Shown here one piece after another: positions 7,101 to 52,165 of a DNA stretch of 64,000 nt. The stretch lies in contig OZ037768.1 of NCBI GenBank assembly GCA_964035545.1, positions 19,327,700 to 19,391,699 of the forward strand. Reading direction: 5' to 3'. How positions within the stretch are numbered: position 1 is the first letter of the stretch; the number at the start of each line of letters is the position of its first letter. The notes under the pieces are model-generated. The model searched no databases. It worked only from the letters and a program-made list of their open reading frames with translations, and was not told the origin of the DNA. This DNA is from Bugula neritina (taxonomy: Eukaryota > Animalia > Bryozoa). Made by a program: the position numbers and the translations under genes.

Positions 7101-10100
7101 TATAGAATTTGATGTGTGCAGTTAAGAACTTTTGGTAATAATGCAATTAAATGATCAGCTTCGAGAGGACATTTGTGATAAATAATTAATGAAAACTACG
7201 AAATGAGTAAAAATTCTGTCTTTTTTTAGTATAGATGGTACACATTATTTGCCCTTTTTAAACTAAAAAATATTTACTAACCTGAAGCAATTGCTATTGT
7301 TATAAAATAAAATATTAGACTAAATTTATGCAATGGGGCAATTAATCATTTCAAAGTGTATTATTTCTTTACAGACTTAACACCACAATATATATACACA
7401 TTGGTTATTATTGATTTTTCTAGGCAGAATACGTAAAACAGTTCATACAGTTGTATATTCATTATTAATGCATGTGTCCATAACAAAAAAACAACAACCC
7501 TGCTAGGAACCGTCATAATCCTAAATATTAAATATAGGAAGATAAATTTCCTTAGCCCAAAAATGAGATTTTATTTACTCAAGCAGTGTATAGCGATCAG
7601 GATGTTCTTTCTGTAACACATCCTGTTTGTATATATAAATAATAATAATTGAGAACTGGAATTGGATTCATAAACTATCCATAGTTAGTTTGTTAATCTT
7701 GATGTCAATAATTTTTTACCTTATTTGCTAGCAAAAGAATTGGTTTTGGAGATGAGCTGCGCAAATGGGGAAGGGGAGGGGAGGGGAGTAATGTTATGTT
7801 TGCCCAGTAGACCCTGTAATGTGTAATGTGCAATGGTTAGCACACCTACTTGCTAGCCAAGGGGGTCTCGGATTCAAACCCTGGTGGGGACAAACTTATT
7901 TTATAAGTGCTATAGAGCTATAAGTAATGCAGCCACATACATAACAGTATGATGTAGAGCCAATCAATGGTAATACAATATTGAGTTTTCTTCGTAATAT
8001 ATTTTTCATTGTAATATGATTTAAAATCTAAAAATTGTTTAAAAGCAACTTTGTGAATTGGAGGACATTCTTGCATAACTTGATCAACGTTATAGTGTTA
8101 CCACTTATGGCGTCGGTCAAGACTTACTGCTTTAAGCAAGTACCAATACAACTAAACATACAGCAGTGCTAGACAAATATTGATTTCTTTAAATCAATTT
8201 ATTCTAATTATTAAGTTATTAGAACATTCTTTCATCAGATTGTCAAGAAGCATTTGAGTCTGGAGAGAGATGTCCAGGTGTCTACACACTAAGAGATCTG
8301 GCTACTTCTATGGAGTTTGATGTATACTGTGAGTTTGACAGTGAACATGGCTGGACTGTAATACAGAGAAGACTGGATGGTTCTGTTGACTTCTACAGAG
8401 GTTGGGATGATTATGTGGGAGGATTTGGTAACCTGTCAGAAGAACATTGGCTGGGTTAGTCATCATGAAAATCACTATAACCTCGTTCACCAGAACTTTT
8501 AAAATAAAAATTAATAAATAATCTAGTTTAAAGCTGTTAATATACACTAAACAACTACACACTTACACACCTATATCTCCGATCTGTCCTGTTCAGGTAG
8601 CAGAAATTTCTAATTATATGCACTGTTACAGTTAAAAATATTTGTTTATTATTATAACTAAATTAATTTCAGTTGCCAAAACGTGCACAAACATTTGTCA
8701 ATACATACTACTGCTACTATCATAAGCAACAGCTCTACAGTAGGTACTCTGTTTACGAAGATTATTACTTTCTACATAGGTATAGTGTTATATAAACTTA
8801 GGTTTGAAGTACATCAACTACTTGACTGCCACCAATAGACAGCTGAGCATTTGTCTGGAAGATCATGTGGGAGAAGTGAGACATGCTAACTATTCCACTT
8901 TCTTCATTAGTGACAACTCAACCGATTATGTGTTAACTGTAAGAAAACATATTTTCTATTTTAATAAATATAAATGAATATAATTATACTCATATATATA
9001 TATAAATACATATATATACTTATATATATATATATATATAAACATATGTTTTTAGTTTTCAGGATACAGTGGAGATGCAGGAGACTCTTTTGCACGCGTT
9101 GGTCAACCGTTCACTACTAAAGACAAGGATAATGATAGAAAATCTGATCAGAACTGTGCTGAGTTGAATCTTGGTAAGACACATATATGATATATAATGG
9201 TAGCTAGCTGTTAGCTTACACAAACACTTCAAGCTTTTTATCAATCAAAATATGATGTATATTATAACTTTTTGTAAAAATCATTTTTGCAAGTACAGGT
9301 TGCATTTTTGGTATTGGTGTCATATGATTGCGCTTGCTTAAATATTTTTTCGTTTGAGCTAAACTTTAGGTTTCTTTCAGTTAAATTTCATACCTCTTTG
9401 TTTAGTTTTTGTTGATCTAGAGTTTCTCTGTGCTTAAATGATGCTCTGCGGTTTGTGTAGCTCAATATAAACCAATAAATAGTTCAGTATGGTTGTTGAT
9501 AGCGTCTACTGTAGTTATATATAGTATACAATTCCACTAACTTAGCAATTTACTTTCAATTGATGGCTTGCTTTGTTTTTGCAGCTGTCTTTCTGCTGAT
9601 GATGTGGTTTTATTGCTTTCGTTGCTATGGAATTTTTTCATTGCTTCTTTATTGTGTTCCTTATATTAGGCATGTGATTTATATAACCGACTTTTAACCC
9701 CCTAGACACACTTTGCCATACTGTAGGCCGTAATGTAAATTGCCAGCCATTTTTAATGTATCTGGGCAGAAGTTTTCATAGTCCGCTATTGGGTACTATC
9801 TATGGCACCTCATTGGACATTTATACCCAATGAGTTGTTGCGGACGTCTTTTTGTCCAATAGCAAAACGATGCAAATGTTGAATCAAACAGTATTTGTTC
9901 CTGACGTTACCGTCGTAATAATATGTCGACTAACCTTAAGTAGCGCTAAGCATAGACTGCCTCGCAGGTTTCCTCTCCACTCTCGCGTGACCTCGTACAC
10001 CAAATACCGAGTCCACCTCTTACACCTTCTCACCAAGTCACTGTTACCCCTTTTTTTTTTGGGTGCTTCCACACCACTCTACAACAAAACCAGCAGACAA

Positions 10101-13100
10101 GAGAGCAGTATGGCTTCTAGGCTCAGGGGTGTATACATATATATATATTTTTTTTTTCCAAATGTTAATGTAAGTAACGAATAGATATGAACATATAAAG
10201 TGCTCGCCCGGCACCTCGTATGGTCTTCAGAAAGTCACTCTAATTTTCGTTTTGTTTTTTTGTTTTTTTTTTTGTTTAAGCATTTGAACAAACGTTGTGA
10301 AAGAGAAAAAAAATACGACTATCTAATGTGCACGCTCGGCACGTCGTATAACCCTGTGCAGGTTTATCCTCTGTACACGTTTTAACTCTTCTATCCAGTC
10401 CCTCACTATCAAATTATTTGGGTGTAACCCATCTCTGAGAAATCTATCTCTAAACGAGTATGTTCCATGTCGTCTTGTAAAAATTCTTTTATGCATATAT
10501 GGGGTGGCAAACCCCGACGACATGTTAAAACCTACTATCCTTCTATTTTCTGATACCACCATGCTACGTATTCTACAGGTGAAGTCTGCGTTTCTAGAAT
10601 CAAACACGCCATTATACTTTTGAAAATTAAGAGGGTAGATTGTGCAGAGAATAATATGAATATGGTTGTTATAAAATGTTTCAAAGTACGGATTGAAAAA
10701 GCTATCTGGTTCAACATTACTATTTGTCACCAGAGAACACCTTCTAGATGAATTCATTTGTGAAAATCTAACCGGACCTATATGGAAATAGATAATTGAG
10801 TTTGAAAATCTACGTTGATTATTGTTTACGTAACTAAATAGGGTCTCCCAGTTGGCTCCTGAGATTCTGATCGTAGTCCATGAGGGATCTTCCAATCCCC
10901 GAACAATAGAGTTTCCGATGATGTAAGTCCTCATGATCTACAACACAATGTTATTTGATAGAGTCGTCCAACTCTATCACTGCTTAAAGATTAAGTCTCT
11001 TGGGGGGCCTAGAGACCCTCCCCCTGGTTGTTACAAAGGACGGACTCTGGGGTGTTACTGGTATTTGATGGGGGGAATTGTCTTCTCGAAAAGAAGTTGC
11101 AACTTCCGTGGGTCTAACAGGGACATCGGTCTGTCTGATAGGCGAGTGGGGAACACTTGCACCCAACCCCTGTTGAGGAGAATCAGTAAAAGATTCACGA
11201 ACGTCAGTAGATCGGGAGATATGAGCTCGGTTCCTGCGCAACACTACTCCATTATCCCTTGCAGCAAGAACTTCCCTGCCTCTCGCTCCAATTACCGTAG
11301 CATGAACAGTGGGTCTGTTAGGATCCCTAACAACTACAGGCTGGTTTACTTGAAATGGACTCCTGTCCCTCACCGCGTGTCTCCTGTTGTACCACATTGA
11401 CTGCCTCCCACGATAATCAGACTCCAAAACCTTGAGTCGTGAGGCATCTACTCCTTTTTCATTCACAAAGCCCATAGAATTCAATGACCGTCCAAATAAC
11501 AACTGAGAGGGAGAGTAACCGTTGAAAAGTGGGGTATCATTATATATGCATAGAGACTCCTGTAAGCTTATATTTTTCTTCAAAAAGTTTTTCACAGTGC
11601 GAACAGCTCTCTCAGCCTCTCCATTACTCTGTGGATAACGAGGAGAGCTTGTAATGTGTTGAATGTCCCATTTTCTCAAATATTCCTGGAATATCTGTGA
11701 CCGAAATTGTGGCCCGTTGTCACTAACAATAGTGTTTGGAACACCTAGCATACATACCAATTCATTAAGGATCTTTGTTAACACAGTAGATTCTGAGGAG
11801 TCTTCCAACTCCCTTACCACAATATATCTACTATAGTAATCCACCACAACCACAAAATTCTGTTCTTGCCAGTTGAATAAATCCACTGCAAGCCTCCACC
11901 ATGGCCGTTCTGGGAAGACTGTGGTCTGTAAAGGTTCTCTATTTTTAATTCGATGTTCTTCACACTGTGGGCATTGCTGAACTAATTGTTTGATCTGTGC
12001 AGTCATTCCAGGCCACCATATGATCTCAGACGCACGTCTTATACACTTGGTTTCACCTTGATGTCCCTTATGAATGTCTCTAAGCACACGATCTCTCTCT
12101 GGTTCTGGAATGAACACTCTATTCATATAGTAAATCACTCCACCAACTTGAGTCATGAACTCTCTAAAAGTATAAAATGGCTTGATAGCAGCAGGAACCA
12201 ACTTAATATTAGGCCACCCTTCCGTAATATACTGGAGCAACACAACTCCCACCTCATCCTCAAACAGAGCCGCCTTGATTCTCGCCAGCCTGCCAGACGA
12301 AATAGGGAGATCTCCAACAAGAGCGCCGAGAACACTTGAGTCTTCCAACTCATCAACATCTGACGAATTCACACATTCCAACATTTCCACCTCCGTTGGA
12401 CTGCGAGACAACGCGTCCGCCAGAACAAGTCTCTTACCGGGGGTATATACAATCGTATAACTGTACGACATCATCTTAAGCCTAAACCGTTGTACCCTCA
12501 AAGGTAGTTTAGCAAGCTCTTTCTCTCCCAAAACGGATACTAATGGCTTATGATCAGTCTCGATCTGGAATTCCTTACCTGACAAATAATAAAAGAACTT
12601 ACTACATGCCCAACAAATGGCTAGAGCCTCCTTTTCGATTTGTGCATATCTTCTTTCAATCGCTGTAAGAGCTCGAGAGGCGAATGCAACAGGATGCCAA
12701 TTACCATTGACTTTTTGCAAAACTGCTGCTCCCAATCCGTAGGATGAAGAATCCGCACTAACAAGAGTCTCCGCCTCAACACAATACGGAATCAGAACTG
12801 GAGTCTGAACTAACAGAGTTTTTAAACAATTAAATTGTTCAGTATGTGGAGGACCCCATCTCCATTCTACATTATTTCCCAGCAGCTGCCGTAGATGGTG
12901 AGTGTTGCTAGAAATCTGAGGAGAGAACTTGCCTAGATAATTTACTATTCCAAAGAACCGTCTTAGTTCTCTTCTGTTCGATGGTATGGGAAAATCCACA
13001 ATAGCTTTGGTCTTATCCGGATCTGCCCGTATCCCAGACTCATCAATTACATGGCCCAAAAACTTTGTCTTATTTACTCCAAACTCACACTTGTCTACAT

Positions 13101-15849
13101 TCAGTGTGATTCCAGCTATTTGGAGCCTTTGCATGACTGCCACTAATCTCTCGTTGTGTTGCCTCGTGGTTGTACCATGAATCAAAATGTCATCCATATG
13201 ACACACAACTCCTTTGAGGTCAACAAGCGCCTTCTGCATTTCTCTCTGGAAGATCTCAGGAGCTGAGCTGATCCCGAATGGAAGTCTCTTACAGTAATAT
13301 CTGCCGAAAGGCGTTATAAACGTGGTCAACTTTTGACACTGTTGCGCTAACTTCATCTGCCAATAGCCGCAGTTGGCATCAAGTTTCGAAAACACCTTTG
13401 AATGTCCCAGTTCACTCAATGTTTCCTCAGTGGTGGGAAGTGGATGATACTCTCTCCTGACTGCTTTGTTTAGCTGAGTGAAGTCTATACACACTCGAAG
13501 ATTGCCATTCTTCTTGGGAACTACTATACAAGGGGAGCACCACTCCGTCGGTTCCTCAATCTTTGCAATCACTCCCAACTCCTCCATTCTTCGAAGTTCT
13601 TCTTGTAGTGGTTTCTTGCGAGCAGCTGCTACCCTCCTTGGAACACTCTGAATAAATGGTTCAACATTGGTGTTTAGGGAAATAGATACCTCCGAATTCA
13701 TTAAACCCAACCCCTTAAACAAAGAAGGAAACGCCTTTACACACGAAGCCTTGTCTAAACTATGACCAAGATTCAGTTCATTCACAAATTTAATCAGATT
13801 CAATTTAGAAATGGCCGGTTTGCCTAATAATGGCGTAACAAGATTCTCCACAAAATATATTGTCTCGTCAATTGAAACCTCTCCATGAGAAATTGTAGTG
13901 TTCACTTGGCCCGTTACCTTTAATCTGGCATTACCCGCACTTTTTAACACCTTACTTGTAGGTTGTAAACCATTCACAAATTTATTAAAGTGTGCTGGGA
14001 CAGCTGTAACAGCAGCCCCAGTGTCCACTTTAAATGTAACTGGATGGGAATTTAAGCGTACATCAATTAGCCAACCTTTAGGTGTTTCAGTTATGGTATT
14101 AATAAAATCAAAGCCTAGTCAATCTGACTCAGAACCCAAGAACAATCCTTCTAACTCCTGATTAACTTCTTCTACTTTTTTGCCTTGACTTGGTCCCTTG
14201 CAAGCCTTCGACTTACTCCAGTGACCCTTTTCTTTGCACACAAAGCAAAACTTGTCTTTCGCAGGACATCTATCCCTCCTGTGGAACACCTTGTTGCAGA
14301 AATAACATTTTCTAGGTGGAGGCCCAACTCTCTCTGACTCTTGAAACTGCCTCCTCCCCTCAGAGTACCTATTTTTAGCCGAATCACCGAGCACATCCAT
14401 ATTAGCATCGGCAGCATCTGTTGCAATCTGCCTAGCCTGCATGTGATGACTAGTAAACTGTTTAGCTTTACGAATGCATGTGTTTAAATCAAGATTTTCA
14501 ATATCTACCAATTGTTCTCTTAGTTTACTATCATTTACCCCAACCACTATTCTGTCTCTCACTAACTGGTCGCGCATCTCTCCATAATCACAATGATCAG
14601 CCTGCGACTGTACTTGGGTTATAAATTGATGAATGTTGAGGTCGCCCTGCCTAATGTTATTAAACTGCACACGTTCATAGATGATATTTTTAACGGGTTC
14701 AAAATGTTTATCAAACATGCCTATAACATTTTGCAATGTCCGTGTTCTTCCAGCTTCAGTAGCATGAAAAGTAAATTGATTAAATATGGGTACACTATCA
14801 GGGCCCATTAGCAACAACAAATTAGCTATTTGCTCCTCATTGTCCATATCACCATATTTTTTTGCTATCTTAACAATGTCAAATTGTTGTTTAAATAATT
14901 TCCAACTAGTGAGCAAATTCGGGTTGCTAAAGTTCAATTTTGTAACAAAACGCTCGTCTCTCGATTCGGCCATCTTTACTTTTAATTTAATACAAAAATT
15001 CTTACAAACAATACAATAACAATATTCAATGTGATTGCCGGACTTATAATTTAAACAATCAACAATCCTGATTACAGTTACACTTACAGTGAGTCAAAGT
15101 TCAAATAAACTTACTGAAGTGGGTTCTTCCAAACCCTCACACGTCAATCACGGAAGTTTCCAACAGGTTCTATTCAACCTCGCAACTTGGACCAAACTTC
15201 TACCAGACGGCAATAACACAATCAAGTTTACTTCTGACACCACGTAATAATATGTCGACTAACCTTAAGTAGCGCTAAGCATAGACTGCCTCGCAGGTTT
15301 CCTCTCCACTCTCGCGTGACCTCGTACACCAAATACCGAGTCCACCTCTTACAACCGTAATGCCGTACAGTGAACTCCGGACAATTTTAAAAATAGCTGA
15401 CATTTGCTGTTATAGACAATGTTGCGGCAAAGTGTGTCTATATACAGGGTAAATTATTCTGTTGATGACTGTATGAAATGTTTTTTAATAAATTATTTAT
15501 CTATACTTCAAAAAGGAAGTTTTTGCTAGTTATGTAGTCACATGTTGACTGGAAGAAGGGTAGTTGTGTCTCATTTGTCTGCAGGTCTGACAAATATTGC
15601 AGTTAATATGTAGTTTTTCAATATAGGTAAAGTAATCATGCATGATGGACAGGCATAATTTGACAGTTCAATGATGTTTTAGGAGGCTGGTGGTATGCTG
15701 GCTGTCTCATTTCCAACTTGAATGGTTTTTGGTATCCAGCGAACCCAACAGACGAAAAGAATGCACCAAGTGCTAAAGGAGTTGTCTGGACAGCATGGAG
15801 AGGATATCAATATTCATTAAAAGCAACAACTATGAAAGTTACCAGATAA
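4106..15849 (+). CDS. Secreted PAN/apple + FReD gene, copy 2 (6 exons)
   Basis: Exons 4106-4256 (hydrophobic leader MMYFFIIHQTFLVITCLPLFT), 6629-6814 (PAN-like CSHLCLEDKKCVSTLYN..DCQLF), 8239-8454, 8802-8938, 9056-9173, 15683-15849. Phases are compatible and there are no internal stops. The last intron holds a MITE and LTR element 1. Confidence 0.85.
4525..4595 (-). repeat. tRNA(Ala-TGC)-like repeat module
   Basis: Minus strand GCCTCCGTGGTGTAATGGTAGCACACTTGCTTGCAAGCCAGAGGACTCGGGTTCGATTCCCAGTGGTGGCA has A and B boxes and imperfect stems. Related copies at ~7810, ~29714, ~63490. Confidence 0.6.
7810..7892 (+). repeat. Degenerate tRNA-like repeat module
   Basis: ..GTGCAATGGTTAGCACACCTACTTGCTAGCCAAGGGGGTCTCGGATTCAAACCCTGGTGGGGAC, similar to the 4525-4595 copy. 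Confidence 0.45.
9914..10024 (-). repeat. 3' LTR of element 1
   Basis: Identical to 15243-15353; termini TGTAAG...ATTACG. Confidence 0.95.
10323..10934 (-). CDS. SGNH/GDSL hydrolase-like accessory ORF (ORF3) of element 1
   Basis: 203 aa. Block I IIGNSIVRG, block II ISGA, divergent block III HIGPVRF, block V DGLHP. Lies between the pol stop and the 3' LTR on the element strand. Confidence 0.85.
   Translation of the reverse strand: MRTYIIGNSIVRGLEDPSWTTIRISGANWETLFSYVNNNQRRFSNSIIYFHIGPVRFSQMNSSRRCSLVTNSNVEPDSFFNPYFETFYNNHIHIILCTIYPLNFQKYNGVFDSRNADFTCRIRSMVVSENRRIVGFNMSSGFATPYMHKRIFTRRHGTYSFRDRFLRDGLHPNNLIVRDWIEELKRVQRINLHRVIRRAERAH
10984..14118 (-). CDS. pol: Pol polyprotein (protease, RT, RNase H, integrase) of element 1
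   Basis: FKVDTGA protease; LPFGISSAP and HMDD RT; ADSSSYGLGAVL, EKEALA, ETDHKPL RNase H; HKGH..CPQC, AVDLF, SDNGPQF, NGEAER integrase. The frame is open from 14118, immediately after the gag TGA. Confidence 0.95.
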   Translation of the reverse strand, partial: LGFDFINTITETPKGWLIDVRLNSHPVTFKVDTGAAVTAVPAHFNKFVNGLQPTSKVLKSAGNARLKVTGQVNTTISHGEVSIDETIYFVENLVTPLLGKPAISKLNLIKFVNELNLGHSLDKASCVKAFPSLFKGLGLMNSEVSISLNTNVEPFIQSVPRRVAAARKKPLQEELRRMEELGVIAKIEEPTEWCSPCIVVPKKNGNLRVCIDFTQLNKAVRREYHPLPTTEETLSELGHSKVFSKLDANCGYWQMKLAQQCQKLTTFITPFGRYYCKRLPFGISSAPEIFQREMQKALVDLKGVVCHMDDILIHGTTTRQHNERLVAVMQRLQIAGITLNVDKCEFGVNKTKFLGHVIDESGIRADPDKTKAIVDFPIPSNRRELRRFFGIVNYLGKFSPQISSNTHHLRQLLGNNVEWRWGPPHTEQFNCLKTLLVQTPVLIPYCVEAETLVSADSSSYGLGAAVLQKVNGNWHPVAFASRALTAIERRYAQIEKEALAICWACSKFFYYLSGKEFQIETDHKPLVSVLGEKELAKLPLRVQRFRLKMMSYSYTIVYTPGKRLVLADALSRSPTEVEMLECVNSSDVDELEDSSVLGALVGDLPISSGRLARIKAALFEDEVGVVLLQYITEGWPNIKLVPAAIKPFYTFREFMTQVGGVIYYMNRVFIPEPERDRVLRDIHKGHQGETKCIRRASEIIWWPGMTAQIKQLVQQCPQCEEHRIKNREPLQTTVFPERPWWRLAVDLFNWQEQNFVVVVDYYSRYIVVRELEDSSESTVLTKILNELVCMLGVPNTIVSDNGPQFRSQIFQEYLRKWDIQHITSSPRYPQSNGEAERAVRTVKNFLKKNISLQESLCIYNDTPLFNGYSPSQLLFGRSLNSMGFVNEKGVDASRLKVLESDYRGRQSMWYNRRHAVRDRSPFQVNQPVVVRDPNRPTVHATVIGARGREVLAARDNGVVLRRNRAHISRSTDVRESFTDSPQQGLGASVPHSPIRQTDVPVRPTEVATSFREDNSPHQIPVTPQSPSFVTTRGRVSRPPKRLNL
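14119..14973 (-). CDS. gag: Gag of element 1
   Basis: 284 aa with LVRDRIVVGV and two Cys/His knuckles (CYFC..H....C; CFVCKEKGHW....AC). Confidence 0.93.
   Translation of the reverse strand: MAESRDERFVTKLNFSNPNLLTSWKLFKQQFDIVKIAKKYGDMDNEEQIANLLLLMGPDSVPIFNQFTFHATEAGRTRTLQNVIGMFDKHFEPVKNIIYERVQFNNIRQGDLNIHQFITQVQSQADHCDYGEMRDQLVRDRIVVGVNDSKLREQLVDIENLDLNTCIRKAKQFTSHHMQARQIATDAADANMDVLGDSAKNRYSEGRRQFQESERVGPPPRKCYFCNKVFHRRDRCPAKDKFCFVCKEKGHWSKSKACKGPSQGKKVEEVNQELEGLFLGSESD
15230..15242 (-). promoter_or_regulatory. Primer binding site of element 1 (tRNA-Leu type)
   Basis: TGGTGTCAGAAGT abuts the 5' LTR and is complementary to a tRNA 3' end ACUUCUGACACCA. Confidence 0.8.
15243..15353 (-). repeat. 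5' LTR of element 1
   Basis: Identical to 9914-10024. Confidence 0.95.
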
Positions 15850-17700: not shown

Positions 17701-19509
17701 TGATAATTTTTTATGGTTATAACTCATTACCTTGAATCATGTAAAAGACGTAGCTTGCGGTCGTTGCTTACAAAATACCAGCAGAGAATATTGTTAGATA
17801 GCTACTGCAATATGCACATTGAACCACAGGATGTCAACTCTCTTATTGTAGATAGTTTTTTACGTGGAACTACTGAGCAGGAGCATTATTGTAATTTGAT
17901 TCTGCAATAAAATAATTCTACCCAAATTGGCTTTCTCTCGTATTGTTGAGCCAGATAGCTCCTCTATAATGTTTTCAAGTCTAGCATATACTCTCCAGCT
18001 GTTAGACTAGGTTTCATGTCTGCTTTATGTGTGCTATTCTTACACAAGTAGCAGAGAATTGATTGTAGAGATATTGTAGTAGTTTGTGGGTTATAGAATG
18101 AAATCAGGCAGATAACATAACTCCTTGTTATAGAAGAGACAAGAGAGAGTAGAATTCGTGTGCGTGCAGTACTTTATTGTAGCAGAGATACATCCAGTGC
18201 GAGCTCCAGTCCTCAAGTGACTGAAGCTCTAAAATGCGTGTCCTTTTATACCAGTAGAACAAAGGACTTCTAGAACCTTCAACCGACAGCGGGCCGATGC
18301 TCGGCAGGGGATGGCGACATTCGTCATGTCGGCAACCGACACTGATCATGTCGGTAACCAACATTCGGTTTGCCAGCATCCACCTGCCGAACTCGGTCCA
18401 ACTGTCGGTTTACATGAATAAGCAAAAATGAACCCAACCAAGTGTATGCACATTGTAACTTATAATTGGGGAAAAGGGATTAACTATTTACTATGCTAAA
18501 AGCTTAAAGTTGCCTTTATACCTTCACGATTTTCGGACAGAATTTCAATTTGGCCGGGTTTAAATTTTACCGAGTTGCATTGCATTGTAAAAGCCACTCG
18601 TAAAAATTTTTGTACTGTGATAACTTAATCTGCTAATTTTAGAATACGAGTAATAACTCCTTGTAAAAATCGTTTAGTTATTACTTTGGCGATCAGACAA
18701 CGTACTTATACGGTTATAATTATATAGCCTACGCTTTCTCAATTATCGCTTTTATGCTGTCCACTTCACTAATTCAAGAAGTTTACAAAGGGCATCAAAT
18801 AGCTATTATGCAAGTCAAATTTCAATTTCAGAAAGTGAGCAATCGCATCAATATGATTTCAACAAGTTTCAGTTTGACTATTGTTGTGAGTTTTAGCACA
18901 ATTATCAAGCGTGGATTGTATGCGTATTTAGTGTCAATTTAACTAGCAATCACTAGTCTGGCTTGCGTACGATAACCTTTATTTAATTCGATAAACATAA
19001 TTATAACACCACATCAAACTATTATACAACACTGATCAATTACAAACACATGTTACTACTACGAGTCTCTGCTCTCAACAACACATGGTTTCTGCTGGCT
19101 AACCTGCGAACAGTCACTTGACCGGAACCTTGCCTTCCGGTCCCTCTGATTGGATAGTAGAACATAGTTATAAGTATTCCCATACAAGAGGGGACGACCC
19201 CATTATTATACTACATAATCCCATTACACCGCCTCCACCAGCAGAAAGCCCTACTTTCTGATAAACAAAAATAGTATAATAATGCAAGAATGACATAAGT
19301 AAGGAAAATCCACAAAGAAAAAGAAAAGAAATATCAAACGTACGACATATTTATAAGTAAGATAAACAGACGGCCAACACACAGCTAGCCAGCTACAGAG
19401 AGAGAGACCTGGATCGTCACACAGATCGGTCGTTAGCAGATCAAGCATTTACACGATCACAATGTAGTACCCCGAGGATATGCGGGGTGGAATTGTCAAC
19501 TTCCAGCTC

Positions 19510-20391
19510 CTAGTTTTGCAGGAACTGGATCCGGTGTCGTGCTTGCCGTGCACGTAATCTACGCTTAAGGCGTCCCACTGAGCCCTTTAGTTCACTAAGG
19601 CTCATTGTAGTGCTGAGTAAGTCGGGGGTCAACTGAGTAAATTCATCCTGCAGTCGTAAGAGTCTTTCCTCGACGGTTGCTAGTCGGTTAGGCCTGGTTG
19701 GAGTTGGCGTCGCTTCTTCTGGAGAATCTGATGCTTCCATGGGGGTGTTGTCTGGCCGGGGTATGGTTGCAGCGACCGTTTTTACCATAGGGGATTTCTG
19801 ACGGGCGGCTGTTAGCAGTGTATAAAACCCGGAGGATAATGCGGCCCAGGTCAAAGCCTTCTTAACCACTGGTCTGACGGCTTCTAGATACTGGTCATAA
19901 TTGTCCGCGTTCACTACATAGCATTTGCCTGTGAAACAGTCCATCATATATGCCACGACGGGGTATGGGTATACGTCGTGAAATTCGCACGGACAGAAGC
20001 GTAGTAGGAAGTGTGCATTCACATGCAGCCGTAGTCCTTGGTGTGAGGGAAGCTCCTCATAACACACGTGGCAGGTTCGTTGTGAGCCACTTGGTCCCCA
20101 GGCTTCTTCAATTTGTCGCTCCGTCCATCGTGACACCCATTTATGTCTTCGACGCAGTGCCGTTTCCGGTCCGTTATCCAAGGAGGAGAGGGGGTGTAGA
20201 TCTTGTGACCCGGAGTTGGTCGGTCGAGTGTGATCTGCAAGAGTATAACAGTGTAAGAGGGTACACTGAGTACAGCCGGCGTATACAGCTTGGTGGGTAC
20301 TTAACTCAATTAGACACTCGTGAGACTCAGCTAATGAATAGTTGATCGAAAACACACACTGCTGTGACGAACTGTTCAGTCTTAGAGTCAA
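19510..20391 (-). CDS. Accessory ORF3 of element 2: C2H2 zinc finger, CPC module, C-terminal coiled coil
   Basis: CHVC-x12-HVNAH, FCPC, RLATVEERLLRLQDEFTQL. Homologous to 47929-48735 from about 20234 onward; the true start is uncertain. Confidence 0.8.
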   Translation of the reverse strand: MTLRLNSSSQQCVFSINYSLAESHECLIELSTHQAVYAGCTQCTLLHCYTLADHTRPTNSGSQDLHPLSSLDNGPETALRRRHKWVSRWTERQIEEAWGPSGSQRTCHVCYEELPSHQGLRLHVNAHFLLRFCPCEFHDVYPYPVVAYMMDCFTGKCYVVNADNYDQYLEAVRPVVKKALTWAALSSGFYTLLTAARQKSPMVKTVAATIPRPDNTPMEASDSPEEATPTPTRPNRLATVEERLLRLQDEFTQLTPDLLSTTMSLSELKGSVGRLKRRLRARQARHRIQFLQN

Positions 20392-20549
20392 TGTGAATTC
20401 CCACCACTAAAAATCATTACCGAGTCTCCAGCTTATTCTGTTACAGTTAAGCTGATTAATACAGTTTAGTCCTCGTACCAAAAACATAACTAACTCACCA
20501 CTCGATTCTTGGCAAGCCATTGTGAATGAGAGTGGTATGTTTATGATTT

Positions 20550-22831
20550 CTACGTACGTCTACTCAAAGCTGTATCAATGTGATGAAAGAGCGAGCAGCG
20601 TGGTTGTGAAACATGGCTAGGACTTATTACTTCCGGCGTATGAATCTCGTTTGAGATTCCGCCGAAGCAAAAGTTGATATTCTCGTGGTGTTCACAACTC
20701 CCACGTCTTGCCCTCTTCCCCGTACGGTACCTCGTGGGACGTTTGACCGCGCCCTGAACGGCACGTGGTAAGTCTTTGAGATACGCGGGGGTTTGTCTAG
20801 AACACCGTTTTCGAGGTGTCGTCACCAATCAAGGCGGTTTACTCACCCGTGGACGGTCACGTCTCACGGGTGGTGCCTCCAGCCAGTTTGTGACAAATGG
20901 AGCTTTCCTAGCATCTCCATACGGAGCCTGGGGAAGTGTCGTCCTCAGCCAGGGCGGTTTACTCACCCGTGGACGGTCACGTCTCACGGGTGGTGCTTCC
21001 AGCCAGTTTGTGACAAATGGAGCTTCCCCGGCATCTCCGTACGGAGCCCCTCCCGTGGGGGGGTTTTGCACTTCCAGGTCGGTTCCTGACCTAGGAAGTG
21101 GTGGCGGCAGCTTGCACGCTGAGGGCGGTGAGCGCACTTCCCTGAACGGGTGTGGCCTTTCCTGCCTCGCCACTGCTTTGGGTTGCATCCTGGGCGGTTT
21201 GTCGACCAGGTCAGCAGTCTCCGTCTGTCCGGGCCCTTCTGCACTTTGCCTTCGCCGTCCCATCTTGTCAGGAGGGCGGCCGTGCTTACTGGCCCGGCAG
21301 ACTCTGCACTGCCTAACTCTGCGCCGCACTTCACGCTCCATGTTAGGCCAATACCATCAGAGTTGTAGTTCGGTGAGCACCTGTTGGGCTCCCGCGTGTG
21401 CCTGTTGGTGTATTTCTTTTATCAACTCCCGGCGGATGGCGGCAGGACAGAGGGTTCTCTCCTGGTCTGGCTGGTTGTGGTTAGTGGCCAAAGATATGGT
21501 CAATAGACCATCCGGCCCGATCCGCAGTGCGTTCCAACGTCGGCAGTACAGCTGCCACTCGGCGCAGCCCTGCTTCCGTTGTTTGTCACTGGGTCGTCGC
21601 CCTTCCCGTTTTATTTGATAGACGTCGGCTACCACCCCCGGAAGATGTTCCTGAAGGTGTCGTAGCTCCTTGACGCTATCGGTTGAGACGGGTTCGGCGT
21701 GGAGGTTCTGTGCCACCTCTGGGGGCATATCAGGGTACCCAAGGTGAGGTGCAGCCTCGGTTTTGTGTAGTAACGTGGCCGTCTCTTGGCGCTTCTCGTT
21801 ATCTACACAACCGTCCGATTCTCCTGCGATGGCCTGCTGTTACCTTCTTGAACAGAAGGAGTACAGCTCAGTGGAGAGGTGGGTGGTAGGTTCACCGTCT
21901 CCGAGAAGGAGTGGAGGCATGGCACCGAGGTCTTTCCTCTCCGTGTCAGCTGGTTAGAGCTGCGGGCAGGTGGGATACTCGGGTGCGCGCTCTCTACAAC
22001 TCCCGTCCTGGAGGTGCGGCCACCGTCCACCTGGCGGTGGACGGCGCCGCGGGAGTGGCCGGGCATAGTACAGGTACGTACTATCGGCTCTTCTCCCGTT
22101 AGAGGATGGCCAAACTTATCGACACAGGTAAGCTCCCGGCCGCCCATAAACATCGCAGATTAACCAAAATCGATGCGACATCCGTGTCGTTGTAAGAATG
22201 GCATCCCAAGGATGGCGTCCTCTTGGAGCTGTCCGACGATGAACCTCTCTTGGATGGTCTAGTCACAGACGCTCCCAGGGAGTTCAATGATACCGTAAAA
22301 GGGGATGCACGACCCGTCTGCCAGGGTGCCATGATCGCCTTCGTACGGTCCCAACCTGCTTCGGATCTGAGCGCTGAGTGTGTTGAAGAATCGACGACCC
22401 AGGAGGTTGGTGGTGCAGCCCGTGTCTAACAGGAATTTGGCAGGCTTGCCGACTATCTGTCCTGGTAGAAACAGGCTGCTCTCGTGGGGATGTAGTGGTA
22501 TCTTTGGTGACCTCATCTCCCTCGCCCTGGTGGAGGGGTTAGGTTTCTGACGACGACTGGGGACCAGCTGTCGAGGGGGTGGCGCCACGCCTTGTGGCGT
22601 TTGGGCCTTTCCCCTCACAGACTCTGCGGTTCGTCGTTTGTCGAACCTGTTGCGGGGTGGCATTGAGAACACCGGCGGCGAGCGGCTTGTACAGCCTGCT
22701 TGCCGTCTTGGTGGCCGTTCCGCGAGGTCTCGGACGGGTGTCCGGCGTGGCGGACGCCACTGTGTCCTCCCTTGGGGTTTTATCGGCGGCCCGCCGGATG
22801 TGGGAGCATCCGCGGGCCGTCGTAGTTTAAC
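20550..22831 (-). pseudogene. pol: Deleted and frameshifted pol of element 2
   Basis: FLLDTGCTTNLL protease, KEDAILG, IHQQAHAG..CRVC (IN zinc finger) and the PAYLKD tail, spread over several frames. Contains a 120-bp-period tandem duplication at ~20833-21050. Confidence 0.85.
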
Positions 22832-23715
22832 CCTGGTTGAAATCGGGGACAGTGTTTCTGGAAGCGTCCTGGTCTTCCGCACTCCCAGCAGGAGGGGTGT
22901 CCTCTACCAGGCAACTGTACCGGTGGCCCGTCAAGCTCACGGGTAGTGTCTAGCTGGCTGAGAGGGGCCAAGGCGGAGACCAGTTCGGCTAGCATGTCGG
23001 TCATTTGTGCGACCTTCGATGCCACCGTCATCTGCGTCACCTTGGCCACCGCTGGAGTTTCCGCGTTAAGAGCGGTAGGAGCAGCGGAGGGCTCCATGTC
23101 TACCTGACAAGAAGTCGCACGGTTCCGGTGCAGTTGACTCGCCAGGAGGTAAGCTTCCCCTTCTGCGAGCGCACCTTTGACCGTGGTGACTCCCCTCGCC
23201 AGGAGTTGGTGATGGAGTCCCAAGTCGTTGATGGATTGCACGAAGGCATCATAAGTGTACCTCTCACGGTTTACTTGAGGCAGATCGCGGAATGCGATCT
23301 GCGCCAGTCTCATGACCGTGGTAGCGTGCTCTTGTAGTGGCATGTGAGGATCACGCCGCAGTCTTTGGAGACGGGCCCGCGCATCTACAGCGGAGATACC
23401 AAAACGGGCCCGCAAGGAAGCAAAGATCCCGTCGATGTCCGGTCCCACTCCGTATGGCTTGGCTTTGTCTGACAGCGCCATCCTGAGCTTGAGCAATGCT
23501 ATTCTGGGTGGCCACTGTGCAACCTCCATTACATCTTGGAATTCCTGAACGAATTGCTCCACCGGCTCCTCACCTGAGAAGGTGGGCACCCTCAGCCGGT
23601 ACTTCTCTTCATAACATTCCCTATGCACTCTCACTTCTGGTTCTATAGGTATAGCAACGTTATCTTCCTCACCTTCATTCCTCCGAATGGATAGCTCTGT
23701 GCCTCTTTCTGTCAT
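22780..23715 (-). CDS. gag: Gag of element 2
   Basis: 311 aa, clearly homologous to 53260-54213 (PTFSGEE.VEQF, AQWPPR.ALLKLR, CWECG knuckle with His replaced by Arg). Confidence 0.9.
   Translation of the reverse strand: MTERGTELSIRRNEGEEDNVAIPIEPEVRVHRECYEEKYRLRVPTFSGEEPVEQFVQEFQDVMEVAQWPPRIALLKLRMALSDKAKPYGVGPDIDGIFASLRARFGISAVDARARLQRLRRDPHMPLQEHATTVMRLAQIAFRDLPQVNRERYTYDAFVQSINDLGLHHQLLARGVTTVKGALAEGEAYLLASQLHRNRATSCQVDMEPSAAPTALNAETPAVAKVTQMTVASKVAQMTDMLAELVSALAPLSQLDTTRELDGPPVQLPGRGHPSCWECGRPGRFQKHCPRFQPGLNYDGPRMLPHPAGRR
22788..22831 (-). promoter_or_regulatory. Putative -1 ribosomal frameshift signal of element 2
   Basis: G TTA AAC, 6-nt spacer, then stem GGCCCGC-GGATG..CATCC-G-GCGGGCC. 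The pro ORF is in the -1 frame. Confidence 0.75.
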
Positions 23716-26699
23716 CTTGATATACGCAAAGATCCCACCGCTGCCACCACTGTTGTGAGTTTTAGCACAATTATCAAGCGTGGATTGTATGCATATTTAG
23801 TGTCAATTTAACTAGCAATCACTAGTCTGGCTTGCGTACGATAACCTTTATTTAATTTGATAAACATAATTATAACACCACATCAAACTATTATACAACA
23901 CTGATCAATTACAAACACATGTTACTACTACGAGTCCCTGCTCTCAACAACACATGGTTTCTGCTGGCTAACCCGCGAACAGTCACTTGACCGGAACCTT
24001 GCCTTCCGGTCCCTCTGATTGGATAGTAGAACATAGTTATAAGTATTCCCATACAAGAGGGGACGACCCCATTATTATACTACGTAATCCTATTACACTA
24101 TAAAGGGGTACCCGGACAAGCATTATTAACTTAAACTCAGTACTTTTTTTAGCAGAGTTATGAACGCAACTTAACAATAGCCATAGATTTTAAGGTATTA
24201 GAAAGTTAGCTATAACTTAGCTATAACTACAGTACTTAGAAAAATAGCCATAAGCGATGTGTCAAGGGAGATAAATCTGATATTTACCACAGTATCCAAG
24301 CTTTCACTCAACACTTGGTGCTAAAAGTATAATAAACAAAGAACTTTAAATCAAGCTTTTTCCAAAAGAAAATGTTGAAATTTTTTATTGTCAGGTTTAA
24401 ATTACAAACATAGATATGAGCTCACAATTGGACATGTTTAAACTAAGCATATTGGGAATTTATTGATAGTTTATATAAATTAATAGACCCTTTTCCAATG
24501 CTCCTTATTGCCAATAAATTTGCAATTAGGAGTTGTGCTCATTTTTAGAAATATAGTACCTATTAGAATCAGTTGGTAGTACTCCTACCAAACTATTATA
24601 AACTTAACTTACTTCCTTTCAATAACTTACTGATAGCTCTATATAATTATGCAAACCCAACGAGGTAAGCCAATATCATATGCATTTTATAGTACCTAAA
24701 TTCCTGCTTTTAGAGTAACTACGCTTCTGGGAAACTGATTTTTGTGATCATATTACTTTTATAATGTTTAGCAAATTTATACAAGCACATTATTTATATA
24801 ACTGACTTTTATATTATTTAGCTTTTACCAGCAGGTGTAAAAATAAAACTGATAGAAAGTACAACTTCTGTGTCTGAAAATTTTGGCTCATACTTTTCGG
24901 GCCAGCTACACTTTTATCAGAGATAAAACTTAAAGCATGACATGTCAAGGGAATTTGTTGTACAAGTACAATAATTGAAATTTAGACATTGCTTGTTAGC
25001 CTCTCAATTTTTTGATAAAAATAAAGAATTGCAGGTTTTGAATCTTAAAATGACACTGTTGGAAAAGACTTTTAAATAAATATTATAAAAGAGACAACAA
25101 AATAGTTTATCAGAACGCTTAGAAGGCAGCCAACAGTATCAACTCAGCCAGTCAATAACCTACTCCAATATTACAAAATGATTTATATCACAATGCCCTT
25201 TACCATACAAGAGTGTCCTTTATAAAGTATATTAGATCTAGTTAGGTTTACACTCAATGATTACAGGTGTTACTTAAAAAACTTCTAAATAAACAAAAAC
25301 AGAAAATAACATAACCCTCACAATTATTTTGTCAATAAAGTGTAAGCTATGTGCAGTTTGGAATATAATGTGGTTCATCTCTATAAAAGGGAGGGCATGG
25401 AACATAATGTGGGTTTATTATAGTATTTATCAGATTATCTACAAGCTAACCTGAGGTGATTGCATGGCTACTGCCCTACAATAGCATTCGGATTTTCTAC
25501 CAGCTTGTACAGCTTGGATATTGGCTATTGGCTTGGTAAAAGTAAAGACTGCATGAGGGACTCTTATTCTGACTGTCAAGTAAGTTGAACGTGATATTAC
25601 ACAGCTAACTTCAAACCAAATGGCAGCTATGAGAAAAATGAGTACAGCCAACTTTCTCTCTTTACTTCTTTATAAGCTGCATGAACTCATGTCATAAAAA
25701 CGCAGTTAATTTAGTCAAAAATCTATTGCCAAACCCATTTCACTAAAATATTTCACAAAAAGATATTGTGGAACGGCTTTCACAAAGACGCTTTCATTTT
25801 AATCATTATAGCAACAAGCTATTGTCAGAGTATTAATCAAGCTATTAACATATTAACAATTACCATTATATTTTAGTTTTGTTTGCAAATTGGTATTTTT
25901 CATAAGGGAGATTGCAATTGGCATCTCTCCTAAGGCAATTTGACGTTATTGCTAGGAGAATTGCCAATTCTTTTAGAACAGTTTCGAATTCTTCTAGGAG
26001 AGATTGCAATTGGCATCTCTGCTAGGAGAGATACTATATACTGTACTCAGCAAATATGTTTTTGTTATTGTAATTATCTTATATTCACTACAGTGATTTA
26101 CGCAATCCAATAAATGAGTGTTTTAGCAACTTTTTTCTACCATGCAGTGTTTTGTTTATATATCAAAGAATAGCAAATTAATGGCAAATAAAGTGTGTTG
26201 TTTTAGTAGAAAGACAATTATTTTATTGTGTTTTAAGTTTATTAGATTTTTTTAGTATAGAAGCACAAAAGTTTCAGTTTGGAGACCAATTTGGAAAATG
26301 ATTTTTTTCCTAACTTAAATTCATAAATTTTGATGATAGTTATTGCATGTAAGCCTGTGCTATATAATTATTTATGTGGTTGTCAATCCTTTTGAGCAGC
26401 TAGAAGAGTAACAGCAATGATTAAGATAAAATTGTTCACTAATGTAGGTGCTTGTTTCAAACAGCACTTTATGCTTTGAGCCAATGAGGTTCATTATTAG
26501 TCAATTAGAGACCGTCTATTTAGAAAAAGAATACTTTGTTTTTGAATGTTCAAACGAGGCCTTGTCAACAGTTATATTTCTTTGGAAAAAACAATGCTTT
26601 TGTCACATGTGAAAATCAACAGTATAACATATCAGCAAGCTTTACAACTCCGATCATTATTTTGCAGTGAGATACACTGGTGTATAATTCCATCGTTTT

Positions 26700-46000: not shown

Positions 46001-47928
46001 GTGGAGCACATCAATACTAACCTTTGTTGCTATATATCACTGCAAAGCCAACATTCTACTGATCTCAGATCTACAAGTACCTTTTTTGTATCTCTGGGGG
46101 GTTCACTCGTGAGAGGGGTGGATATACAGGGGTTCAGCATTTTTCAAGGGGGGACTATGGAACTCTAAATATTTAATTTTCTGAGTAGTTTAGGTTTGAC
46201 ATTAAAAATATTTTCAAGAAATGTTGTACACATATGAAACTTTCTCTAACAAAAGTTTTGACCAAAAATAAAAAAGTGGGCGGAGCCTATAATATGACAA
46301 ACTACTTTTTTGCATATACCGGATATTTTCTAAACTGCTACTTTTCTGTTCTAGCATTTAGAATGTTGATTTTTGGTATGAAAATACTCTATTGTGTTCT
46401 AATAATGCTCTCTAGTTTTCATCACATTTTGAACTATATAACTTCTTTCCCAACCATGACAAATAAATTATTATTGCATTTCTACCCAAAAATATTGCTC
46501 TTTGTTGATAGGAACAACATCAGCATGATAAAAATCTATTCTTAGTGTATTTATATTAGCTTATTGACTTATTTTGAATAATTGATTACGATCAATACTA
46601 TTAAGTATTAATATTCAATATTTACTGTATAAATTGAGTGTCAGAAATAATTAACAGACCACTAATATTCGATTTTTTTATTCATAAGTATTATAACATA
46701 AAATATGGTTCATTAATGAAAAAGTAATATTATAATTTCAGCATCACAAGCAATTACTATGCTCTTTTATATCAGATATTGGTAGACCTTTTTAATTGTA
46801 TTTATTTATAAATAAGATAGTATTTAAATTTTAGTTCACAATAGATCAAGCTTTGTTACAAAGTTTTGTTATCTCTAGCATTTATATACCAAATTAAATA
46901 GATCATAATTCTTCATCAGAACTGTGCTTGTTGCCATCATCATCATAATCAGGCTTTTTGTTTGAAAAAGAAGACTGGCCACTTTTATTGTTGCAATCGA
47001 AACATTCACATAAACCACAGCATTTCACCATCAGGCGCTTGCATTTGCATGCTTTACTCTTACAGCCGGCTTTTTTGTATTTACATGCTGTTAAAATCAC
47101 ATCTGCGTTGCTCTCAAAATCATATTTTATTGGAGTGAAGTTAGTATCCCAACCATGGTCAAAAATTGGCTGATGAAGTAAAATAGGTGTTAAAGCAAGT
47201 TGCCAAAGTGTAACTTGATAATTAGCTCATTTCACGTGATATTTTAGGGAATTCCTACTAGGTGGTAGCTATGCTTCACTGGAGACATTTTTTAAAGCCA
47301 ATATTTTATATCTTGCTTCAGTGATATTGTTATATTTTTCAGAATTAGGGTTGATATGCAATCCAGAGAGTCTAATTACTTGTTATAGAACTGCACCAGG
47401 ATAAGTCGAGTGAACGAGTATATATTTTAAACACACTGATACATTACAAAAACGATACAAATACATTTGACAATTCACACATCTAGACTATTCAGCACTC
47501 TAACTTCGACTGACTAACAGCGGGAAAACTATTACTGCTACTAACTAATCCGAAGCCGCTAATTGGCTATCCATTGTTCCGGGTCAATTACACGACCCTA
47601 TATACTGTGCTGCTGGTAGCTCCACGAGCCACCACACCGCCCCCACCAGCAGAAAGCCCTCTTTCTGATATAAAAAAAAACATTCATCATTAACCACATA
47701 CATCAGTAGACCAAAAGATAATACATAACACATATAAAGATATCTAATAACAGACAGAGTCATTATAACAGCAAGTTACATACAATTGGCCAGCTATAGA
47801 GGAGGAATACCGGCTAGCTGTAGTATTGGACAAAGAGTCGGCCTGTCGAGCAGTCAAGCATTTACATGATAGTCTTGGGTCTCCCAAGAGGACGAAGTTG
47901 TGGATTATTCCGGGTAGCAGAACCAGAG

Positions 47929-48735: not shown

Positions 48736-48758
48736 ACTGAATTGTGAAATGGTTCGAA

Positions 48759-51700: not shown

Positions 51701-52162
51701 CCACAAACCGTCCCGTGTGATAAACGCCGCTTTCTCCTGGGCGTCGGGACTCAGAGGAACTTGCCAATAGCCACTCAGCAAGTCTAACATACTGAAGTAC
51801 TTGCTGCCGGCTAGGGCGTCCAATGACTCGTCAATACGAGGTAGAGGATAGGCGTCCTGTATGGTTACGCTATTGAGTTTGCGGTAATCCACACAGAACC
51901 GCCAACTGCCGTCTTTCTTCCAGACCAGTACGACCGGCGAGCTCCACGCACTATGGGCGGGCTCTATCAGTCCCCGGTCCAGAAGATCCCGTACTTGTCG
52001 GCTAACCTCCTTCTCTTTTGCCGGCCCCAGCCTACGTGTGGGTTGCCGGACAGGGACTGTCCCTGCAGTCAGCGGTATTTCGTGTCTGACAACTCCAGTC
52101 AGCCCCACGTCCTGATCTCCGCTGCTGAACACATCACCGTAGTCGCGTAGTAACTTCGCCAT
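48759..52162 (-). CDS. pol: RT, RNase H and integrase part of element 3 pol (ORF 49004-52162 plus frameshifted tail to 48759)
   Basis: LPFGLTSAPATFQR and YLDD RT; DTDASD, RTDHASL RNase H; HKQAH..CEIC, HSDQGAQF, GVVER integrase. Restoring 1 bp near 49012 gives RQPPAYLKDFV and extends the frame to 48759. Confidence 0.93.
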
Positions 52163-52165
52163 AGC

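What the first reader, a model, noticed from the sequence alone, without database searches (positions are those of the whole stretch)
10323..10934. Young, intact Gypsy element with an SGNH/GDSL esterase-like gene in the env position
Seen: an intact 203-aa ORF inside identical LTRs with Ser in G-N-S (block I), Gly (block II) and D-G-L-H (block V). The Ser-Asp-His triad appears retained, while block III GxND is replaced by GPVR. There is no signal peptide or TM segment, so it is not Env. Known: SGNH domains occur in ORF1p of CR1/L2/RTEX LINEs (lipid and membrane binding), in the RNA-binding OSK domain of Oskar, and as extra ORFs in bdelloid rotifer LTR elements. Inference: a Mag-like lineage using a stand-alone esterase-fold protein for membrane interaction, particle trafficking or cell-to-cell spread without an envelope, or for RNA binding. 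I cannot confirm from here that this family is undescribed.
Basis: partly seen in the sequence, partly recalled or inferred. Interest (0 to 1): 0.85.

Follow-up and report, generated by a model that had tools for sequence, protein, structure and literature searches.

The report
Gypsy retrotransposon with spliced esterase gene
A recently inserted jumping gene carries, where retroviruses keep their envelope gene, a conserved and separately spliced gene for a protein predicted to fold like a fat-splitting enzyme, which likely helps the element's particles stick to membranes inside the cell; similar extras are known from rotifer elements, so this is a new variant, not a new kind.

Summary
Observation confirmed. 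A 5,440-bp Gypsy element (identical 111-bp LTRs, 5-bp target duplication, open gag and pol frames) carries a stand-alone 203-aa ORF3 after pol. Its model (pLDDT 96) matches SGNH hydrolases (Z 15.1). Ser9, Asp168 and His171 are all kept in 52 of 56 aligned relatives down to about 16% identity. The oxyanion Asn is replaced (Asn in 3 of 56). There is no signal peptide or membrane helix. New here: contigs from probable RNA runs of a ~97% sister family join one GT donor in the leader to an AG 3 nt before the ORF3 start (1 of 6 runs) or to an AG near the 3' LTR (1 of 6). ORF3 thus appears to use an env-like spliced mRNA. The protein is very arginine-rich. Distant relatives follow pol, and even an F-type env, in mussel gene models, so it looks like an accessory, not an envelope substitute. 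Best reading: a slow esterase that tethers particles to anionic membranes, as proposed for zebrafish ZfL2-1; untested. Precedent: bdelloid Vesta GDSL ORF3. This scan noted other Gypsy+SGNH arrangements on other DNA. Mag assignment fits five features but has no tree.

The parts
15243..15353 (-). 5' LTR, 111 bp, begins TGTAA, ends TTACG (non-canonical CG end)
15354..15358 (-). target-site duplication ACGGT, upstream copy
15231..15242 (-). primer-binding site TGGTGTCAGAAG, same 12-mer as the tRNA-Leu PBS of Steamer elements
15109..15114 (-). splice donor (CA|GTAAGT) in the leader, used by both observed joints
14119..14973 (-). gag, 284 aa, two adjacent Zn knuckles, ends TGA followed by CTAG
10984..14118 (-). 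pol, 1044 codons, PR-RT-RNase H-integrase, same frame as gag, likely reached by stop-codon readthrough (inferred)
10938..10950 (-). splice acceptor (..TGTGTTGTAG|ATC ATG) 3 nt before the ORF3 start
10323..10934 (-). ORF3: 203-aa SGNH-fold protein, Ser9/Gly26/Asp168/His171, Val55 at the oxyanion Asn position, pI 10.5, 26 Arg and 3 Lys
10079..10095 (-). second splice acceptor (..TTTTGTTGTAG|) 54 nt before the 3' LTR
10025..10034 (-). short polypurine tract-like stretch (GGTGAGAAGG) abutting the 3' LTR
9914..10024 (-). 3' LTR, identical to the 5' LTR
9909..9913 (-). target-site duplication ACGGT, downstream copy

Best explanation
ORF3 is a conserved third gene of a recently inserted Gypsy retrotransposon, likely made from its own spliced mRNA, whose soluble, strongly basic product is predicted to fold as an SGNH esterase and likely works inside the cell as a slow esterase that tethers the element's particles to negatively charged membranes. 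Shown: element anatomy, conservation of the triad residues, absence of signal and membrane segments. Seen once in a sister family: the splice joint. Predicted: the fold. Inferred from the ZfL2-1 esterase: the arginine-rich surface binds anionic phospholipid, Ser9 engages an acyl ester, and the weakened oxyanion hole (no Asn) makes turnover slow or single-round, so the protein acts as a releasable anchor for particle assembly or transport. A separate mRNA would let its dose be set apart from Gag and Pol.
For: Fold: pLDDT 96.1, pTM 0.91; the 31 Foldseek PDB rows shown are SGNH/GDSL-type proteins or three designed scaffolds, best E 6e-8; best VIA Z 15.1, rmsd 2.7, 157 aligned. Triad: S, D, H all present in 52 of 56 rows, D168 and G169 in 56 of 56. 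Best natural PDB match of the family profile is the ZfL2-1 retrotransposon esterase, E 4e-5, with H51 on its transposon-specific H191 (H in 29 of 33 close relatives). That esterase is slow, pI 10.8, and binds anionic lipids and liposomes by surface charge (PMC3905857). pI here 10.5; family median 10.3, minimum 9.6 of 33. SGNH-fold acyl enzymes without the block III Asn exist (AlgJ, AlgX; PMC10792757 Table 2). Splicing: joint 15115-10937 with GT..AG ends and no ambiguous letters in run X10, same donor in X6 from another study, neither joint in X1 or X2. Selection: 7 synonymous, 8 non-synonymous differences, pN/pS 0.32, p 0.03. Linkage elsewhere: P0089 (Watersipora subatra) has an integrase 49% identical to this one followed by an ORF3 relative.
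Against: No activity, lipid binding or particle association was tested; triad geometry could not be measured because coordinates are not returned. The Asn of the oxyanion hole is absent in 53 of 56 rows. Arg makes up 86% of Arg+Lys in the close family against 41% in 21 distant relatives and 47-58% in the element's own Gag and Pol, which fits RNA binding at least as well as lipid binding. There is no coiled coil or fusion to Gag, so how it would reach the particle is unexplained. The ORF3 joint was seen in 1 of 6 probable RNA runs, in one 60-nt contig with 28 letters on the short side, RNA status is the tool's guess, and the RNA is from a sister family, not this copy. pN/pS rests on 15 listed differences from cut tables, without correction for transition bias.
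Confidence: 0.45

Rival explanations
1. ORF3 is mainly an RNA-binding regulator (Rev/CERV-like export or packaging factor) built on the SGNH fold, like the OSK domain; the triad is secondary.
For: The element splices, so its unspliced genome must escape nuclear retention; CERV of Cer1 is made from a spliced mRNA and does this job (PMC10309623 abstract). Strong Arg bias, conserved TRR motif (R154 in 32 of 33, R155 in 31 of 33). OSK is among the fold matches (Z 12.1).
Against: OSK has lost the whole triad (PMC10792757) while this family keeps it in 52 of 56. The ZfL2-1 esterase, despite pI 10.8, did not bind oligo-A RNA stably.
Confidence: 0.2
2. ORF3 is a free enzyme that removes or transfers an acyl group on a specific partner: a host defence protein or lipid, or the aminoacyl ester on the primer tRNA-Leu, whose 3' end must be free for reverse transcription.
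For: Deep conservation of the triad implies chemistry. Top VIA rows are O-acetyltransferase and O-acetylesterase domains. A basic surface suits an anionic substrate such as tRNA. A separate mRNA suits action in trans. The tRNA idea is my inference and rests on no call.
Against: No substrate evidence; fold neighbours differ by under 1-2 Z and show no function. Esterases also occur in non-LTR elements that use no tRNA primer. ZfL2-1 esterase did not deacetylate histone peptides.
Confidence: 0.17
3. ORF3 replaces an envelope: it breaches or remodels membranes, or strips cell-surface acetyl groups, so that particles pass between cells or hosts.
For: Env position and env-like splicing. Proposed for bdelloid GDSL ORF3s (PMC6431247 passage). 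Env-independent cell-to-cell spread exists in Drosophila (bioRxiv 2025.03.14.642691 passages).
Against: No signal peptide or membrane helix, whereas the Drosophila factor is transmembrane. Wider-clade relatives follow an F-type env in Mytilus gene models P0202 and P0159. The bdelloid paper itself favours auxiliary roles.
Confidence: 0.12
4. ORF3 is a captured host-gene fragment riding along without function.
For: A Bugula neritina gene model (P0234, cluster of P0182) carries a related domain before an RS-rich tail, so a cellular source may exist.
Against: Open frame in this copy and in the sister family (P0001), pN/pS 0.32, 33 diverged family members at 37-54% identity to it, dedicated splice acceptor, linkage to a homologous integrase in another species.
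Confidence: 0.04

Closest known systems
GDSL esterase/lipase ORF3 of Vesta LTR retrotransposons in bdelloid rotifers (Rodriguez, Kenefick, Arkhipova 2017, PMC5408684)
   Same: Stand-alone SGNH ORF after pol in a Gypsy-type element; no coiled coil or membrane segment; function untested.
   Different: Vesta ORFs are about 1.3 kb with the invariant S, G, N, H residues reported intact, in a lineage with dUTPase. This ORF is 0.6 kb, lacks the Asn, is Arg-rich, and sits in a Mag-like element without dUTPase. That paper assumes spliced ORF3 messages; here a joint is seen. No direct sequence comparison was possible.
ORF1p esterase of ZfL2-1 and other CR1/L2/RTEX/Penelope elements (Schneider et al. 2013, PMC3905857; PDB 4c1b)
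   Same: SGNH fold, Ser-Asp-His triad, His before block III, high pI; best natural PDB match of the family profile.
   Different: There it follows a coiled coil in the gag-like ORF1 and keeps Asn195. Here it stands alone after pol in an LTR element, has Val at that place and carries insertions after block III and before block V.
Steamer and other C-clade (Mag lineage) Gypsy elements of marine invertebrates (PMC8905726)
   Same: Identical 12-nt PBS, short LTRs starting TGTAA, gag and pol in one frame.
   Different: Steamer has one uninterrupted gag-pol ORF, LTRs ending in CA, and no third ORF in the passages read. This element has an in-frame TGA-CTAG between gag and pol, and ORF3.
OSK domain of Oskar (PDB 5a4a)
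   Same: SGNH fold (Z 12.1); a precedent for RNA binding by this fold.
   Different: OSK lacks the catalytic triad; this family keeps it.
env of errantiviruses and retroviruses
   Same: Position after pol; expression from a spliced subgenomic RNA with a donor in the leader (env splicing is recalled knowledge).
   Different: No signal peptide, fusion peptide, cleavage site or membrane anchor; unrelated fold.

Membership tests
SGNH hydrolase superfamily | flavodoxin-like SGNH fold | tested here: met
   model pLDDT 96.1; Foldseek E 6e-8; VIA Z 15.1, rmsd 2.7, 157 aligned
SGNH hydrolase superfamily | block I nucleophile Ser | tested here: met
   S9 in 53 of 56; aligned to GDS of 4c1b
SGNH hydrolase superfamily | block II Gly | tested here: met
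   G26 in 55 of 56; aligned to FPG of 4c1b
SGNH hydrolase superfamily | block III oxyanion Asn | tested here: not met
   V55 here; Asn in 3 of 56. Accepted superfamily members also lack it (AlgJ, AlgX), so it is SGNH-like, not canonical
SGNH hydrolase superfamily | block V D-x-x-H | tested here: met
   D168 in 56 of 56, H171 in 55 of 56
SGNH hydrolase superfamily | triad geometry and ester hydrolysis | not testable with these tools
   no coordinates returned, no assay
Ty3/Gypsy LTR retrotransposons | LTRs, target duplication, PBS, PPT | tested here: met
Ty3/Gypsy LTR retrotransposons | pol order PR-RT-RH-IN | tested here: met
Ty3/Gypsy LTR retrotransposons | usual TG..CA termini | tested here: not met
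   both LTRs end in CG; a departure, not a bar to membership
Mag lineage / C-clade | placement in an RT/RNase H tree | not testable with these tools
   no named Mag reference sequences were on hand; PMC8905726 says only a tree separates the branches
Mag lineage / C-clade | tRNA-Leu PBS TGGTGTCAGAAG | tested here: met
Mag lineage / C-clade | two adjacent Zn knuckles; no gag-pol frameshift; no GPY/F; no dUTPase (features of the bdelloid Mag family, PMC5408684) | tested here: met
   read from the translations and Pfam; the second knuckle is CX2CX4HX6C
Steamer family | single uninterrupted gag-pol ORF | tested here: not met
   TGA at 14121-14119, also in the main contig of X1
Envelope glycoprotein | signal peptide and membrane anchor | tested here: not met
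   max hydropathy 0.64; N-terminus is a core strand
Envelope glycoprotein | spliced subgenomic mRNA | tested here: inconclusive
   joint in 1 of 6 probable RNA runs, sister family; strong sequence context but one contig
Vesta GDSL ORF3 | S, G, N, H all intact; about 1.3 kb; dUTPase lineage | tested here: not met
Vesta GDSL ORF3 | common ancestry of the esterase | not tested
   no Vesta sequence was available
Non-LTR ORF1p esterases (ZfL2-1 type) | transposon-specific His191 | tested here: met
   H51 aligned; H in 29 of 33 close rows but only 20 of 56 wider rows
Non-LTR ORF1p esterases (ZfL2-1 type) | transposon-specific Ser228 | tested here: inconclusive
   invariant C97 is a candidate, but that region was not in the printed alignment
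Non-LTR ORF1p esterases (ZfL2-1 type) | N-terminal coiled coil, ORF1 position | tested here: not met
   protein starts at the first core strand and lies after pol
OSK domain | loss of the catalytic triad | tested here: not met
   triad kept; OSK lacks it

The most novel reading that the evidence does not exclude
An Asn-less, arginine-rich SGNH clade is a swappable accessory cassette of marine-invertebrate Gypsy elements, expressed by env-like splicing and found with or without env. It supplies a missing step of the replication cycle, either a releasable membrane anchor that loads particles into vesicles for envelope-free passage between cells and hosts, or a deacylase for the primer tRNA.
Probability: 0.17. 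Interest if true: 0.8.

Novelty: new variant of a known kind. Interest (0 to 1): 0.5.

Why it matters
Esterase-fold genes have been picked up repeatedly by unrelated retroelements, and their role is an open question. This family is a small, single-domain, well-modelled example with an apparently dedicated spliced mRNA, a living sister family in public RNA data and a natural loss of one active-site residue. That makes lipid anchor, RNA binder and deacylase directly testable on one purified protein. It also extends enzyme-type ORF3s from bdelloid-specific lineages to Mag-like elements, the commonest Gypsy group of marine invertebrates.

Tried and rejected
No host genome was held, so copy number and sister copies could not be surveyed. 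Single-sequence Pfam and PDB searches gave nothing; Pfam on the 22 members of A1 gave only weak single hits. Searches for DNA loci found none: viral contigs (one search found no usable pattern), metagenome contigs, prokaryote genomes. Linkage in other families therefore rests on gene models and contig lengths. No stable stem-loop after the gag stop (z -0.25). No usable tRNA gene in the window. The viral structure library gave phage esterases and tail proteins at TM 0.3-0.6, uninformative on origin. The tree cannot place the RS-tailed cellular-looking relatives (long branches meet). X5, X21, X8 and X14 showed no splice joint; X21 and X14 each had one joint dropped at repeats. Contig depths were not used to rank genes. 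PMC5939071 was not held. No complex prediction was sent, as no binding partner is claimed. Rejected: Env, neutral passenger, membership of Vesta ORF3 or OSK.

Full report
1. Observation. The ORF is as described: 10934-10323, minus strand, 203 aa. It lies in a 5,440-bp element bounded by identical 111-bp LTRs (15353-15243, 10024-9914) with ACGGT duplicated on both sides. Order on the minus strand: LTR, PBS TGGTGTCAGAAG, gag (284 aa, two Zn knuckles), TGA-CTAG, pol in the same frame (1044 codons; protease, RT, RNase H, integrase), 49 nt, ORF3, 298 nt, 3' LTR. Identical LTRs and open frames mean a recent insertion. In run X1 near-identical contigs (0-4 differences in the pieces shown) cover the element more deeply than its flanks, a hint of several young copies, though the tool warns that depth is no copy number.

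2. The protein. Pfam and PDB sequence searches with the single protein find nothing. Homologue searches give 23 proteins, 36 with a profile, and 445 representatives at E<=0.001, 146 at 1e-10, among 1.84 billion. Of 62 of these scanned, 10 had a GDSL, OSK or AlgX hit at E<=0.01. AlphaFold2 on 33 sequences gives pLDDT 96.1; Foldseek and VIA return SGNH proteins throughout their top rows. The Atlas feature search agrees (0.95, GDSL cluster). A profile of 56 sequences, which I picked from the hits as mostly full-length single-domain rows, finds a designed GDSL-like scaffold first and the ZfL2-1 retrotransposon esterase as best natural chain (E 4e-5); it aligns GDS to G7-N8-S9, FPG to G26 and HVGTND to H51-IGPVR. 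Ser, Asp and His are all present in 52 of 56 rows; Asn occupies the block III site in 3 of 56. Loss of the Asn is thus a clade trait, not decay of this copy. AlgJ and AlgX show that SGNH-fold acyl enzymes can lack it, whereas OSK has lost the whole triad. The protein has no membrane helix (3 of 33 relatives exceed a 19-residue hydropathy of 1.6), pI 10.5, 26 Arg and 3 Lys. The Arg share of basic residues is 0.86 in the close family, 0.41 in 21 distant rows, and 0.47 and 0.58 in the element's Gag and Pol.

3. Expression. 24 public runs hold the element or part of it; 8 were laid. Six are RNA or guessed RNA. They carry a sister family about 97% identical; one contig runs 5,280 nt from LTR to LTR (X8) and one covers 10411-14956 without a gap (X6). 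X10 shows a joint 15115-10937 and X6, from another study, a joint 15115-10078; both read GT..AG on the coding strand with no ambiguous letters. The donor is CA|GTAAGT; the first acceptor is 3 nt before the ORF3 ATG, and the only ATG upstream of the donor is at 15282 inside the LTR. Neither joint appears in X1 or X2. Against: each joint is in 1 of 6 runs, in one short contig with 25-28 letters on the short side, laid at 90% likeness, and concerns the sister family. I still take splicing as likely, because chance or DNA deletion would hardly give one canonical donor with two canonical acceptors, one of them at the start codon.

4. Selection and linkage. Fifteen differences to the sister family listed within ORF3 (tables were cut; X10 has 17 over 10306-10937) split 7 synonymous to 8 non-synonymous, pN/pS 0.32, p 0.03 uncorrected; none touches S9, G26, D168 or H171. 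P0089 from the bryozoan Watersipora subatra holds an integrase 49% identical to this one followed by an ORF3 relative. Nine of the 36 profile hits have a longest contig of 5.2-5.9 kb, the size of one element; this is indirect. Four of the five longer relatives, all Mytilus gene models, were read: in two the esterase follows a Gypsy protease, in two an integrase end, a chromodomain and a region that resembles F-type fusion proteins; the fifth (P0201) had no Pfam hit and was not read. These fall in a separate, well-supported branch from the present family. No DNA loci could be fetched.

5. Mechanism. Shown: anatomy, conservation, no export signal. Likely: own spliced mRNA. Predicted: fold. Inferred: function. 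The ZfL2-1 esterase is a slow enzyme that binds anionic lipids by charge, and its authors propose single-round hydrolysis as a release step. A basic protein with a triad but a two-point oxyanion hole fits that model, so I commit to an intracellular, releasable membrane anchor for particles (0.45). RNA export or packaging (0.2), a deacylase for a host partner or the primer tRNA (0.17), a true envelope substitute (0.12) and a neutral passenger (0.04) follow. The envelope reading loses ground because the protein cannot enter the secretory route and wider relatives sit beside an env.

6. Comparison and novelty. GDSL ORF3s after pol are published for bdelloid Vesta elements (PMC5408684; parts 1-3 of 5 of the text and passages read). 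Those keep all four signature residues, are about twice as long and lie in another lineage. Five features fit the Mag lineage (PBS, twin knuckles, no frameshift, no GPY/F, no dUTPase), but no tree with named references was possible. Three searches aimed at this arrangement listed only the bdelloid paper as a match by title and abstract, and term look-ups found no SGNH, esterase or hydrolase in PMC13524379 or PMC12440569 and no esterase or hydrolase in PMC8556966. Repbase, GyDB, subscription journals and supplements were not seen and may hold such elements. Other papers used: PMC3905857 (parts 2-4 of 6), PMC10792757 (passages, section 8, part of section 7), PMC8905726, PMC8220671, PMC9841425, PMC6431247 and bioRxiv 2025.03.14.642691 (passages), PMC10309623 (abstract). 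Earlier notes of this scan report other Gypsy or copia elements with SGNH domains in other genomes, unchecked here; no look-alike by sequence. Verdict: real, probably functional, a new variant of a known kind; interest 0.5.

Noticed in passing
window 14121-14115 (-): gag ends in TGA followed by CTAG, in frame with pol. UGA_CUAG is a known readthrough-prone signal in mammals (PMC9841425 passages). The stop is shared by the main X1 contig; no downstream stem-loop.
   Followed up: partly
window 15115 joined to 10078: Second spliced RNA (run X6) removes gag, pol and ORF3 but keeps PBS and PPT; a roughly 0.3-0.4 kb RNA without a long ORF that could act as a non-autonomous mini-element or a regulator.
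   Followed up: no
window 9914-9915 and 15243-15244: Both LTRs end in CG instead of CA, yet the copy has a clean 5-bp target duplication.
   Followed up: no
window about 9700-9913 and 15354-15440: The element sits inside a short repeat with terminal inverted repeats (arms 9703-9756 and 15387-15440) that many contigs match in X1 and X2: probably a MITE.
   Followed up: partly
window 18877-24045 and 47328-54544: Two further Gypsy elements with 300-bp LTRs (98% and 100% identical) carry a different ORF3 after pol (20406-19510; 48765-47929), 49% identical to each other, with a C2H2-like finger and a coiled-coil-like tail, and no Pfam match above cut-off.
   Followed up: partly
proteins P0202, P0159, P0199, P0200 (Mytilus gene models): Wider-clade SGNH domains follow Gypsy integrase/chromodomain plus an F-type env-like region, or a Gypsy protease. 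The models are probably mis-spliced broken elements, so they show adjacency only.
   Followed up: partly
proteins P0182/P0234 (Bugula neritina), P0133, P0197, P0145, P0148: Related SGNH domain at the N-terminus of 435-779-aa proteins with low-complexity tails, RS-rich in the three longest; possibly a domesticated or donor host gene.
   Followed up: partly
window 55159-56346 (-) and 60841-61632 (+): Open frames of 395 and 263 codons without Pfam match.
   Followed up: no
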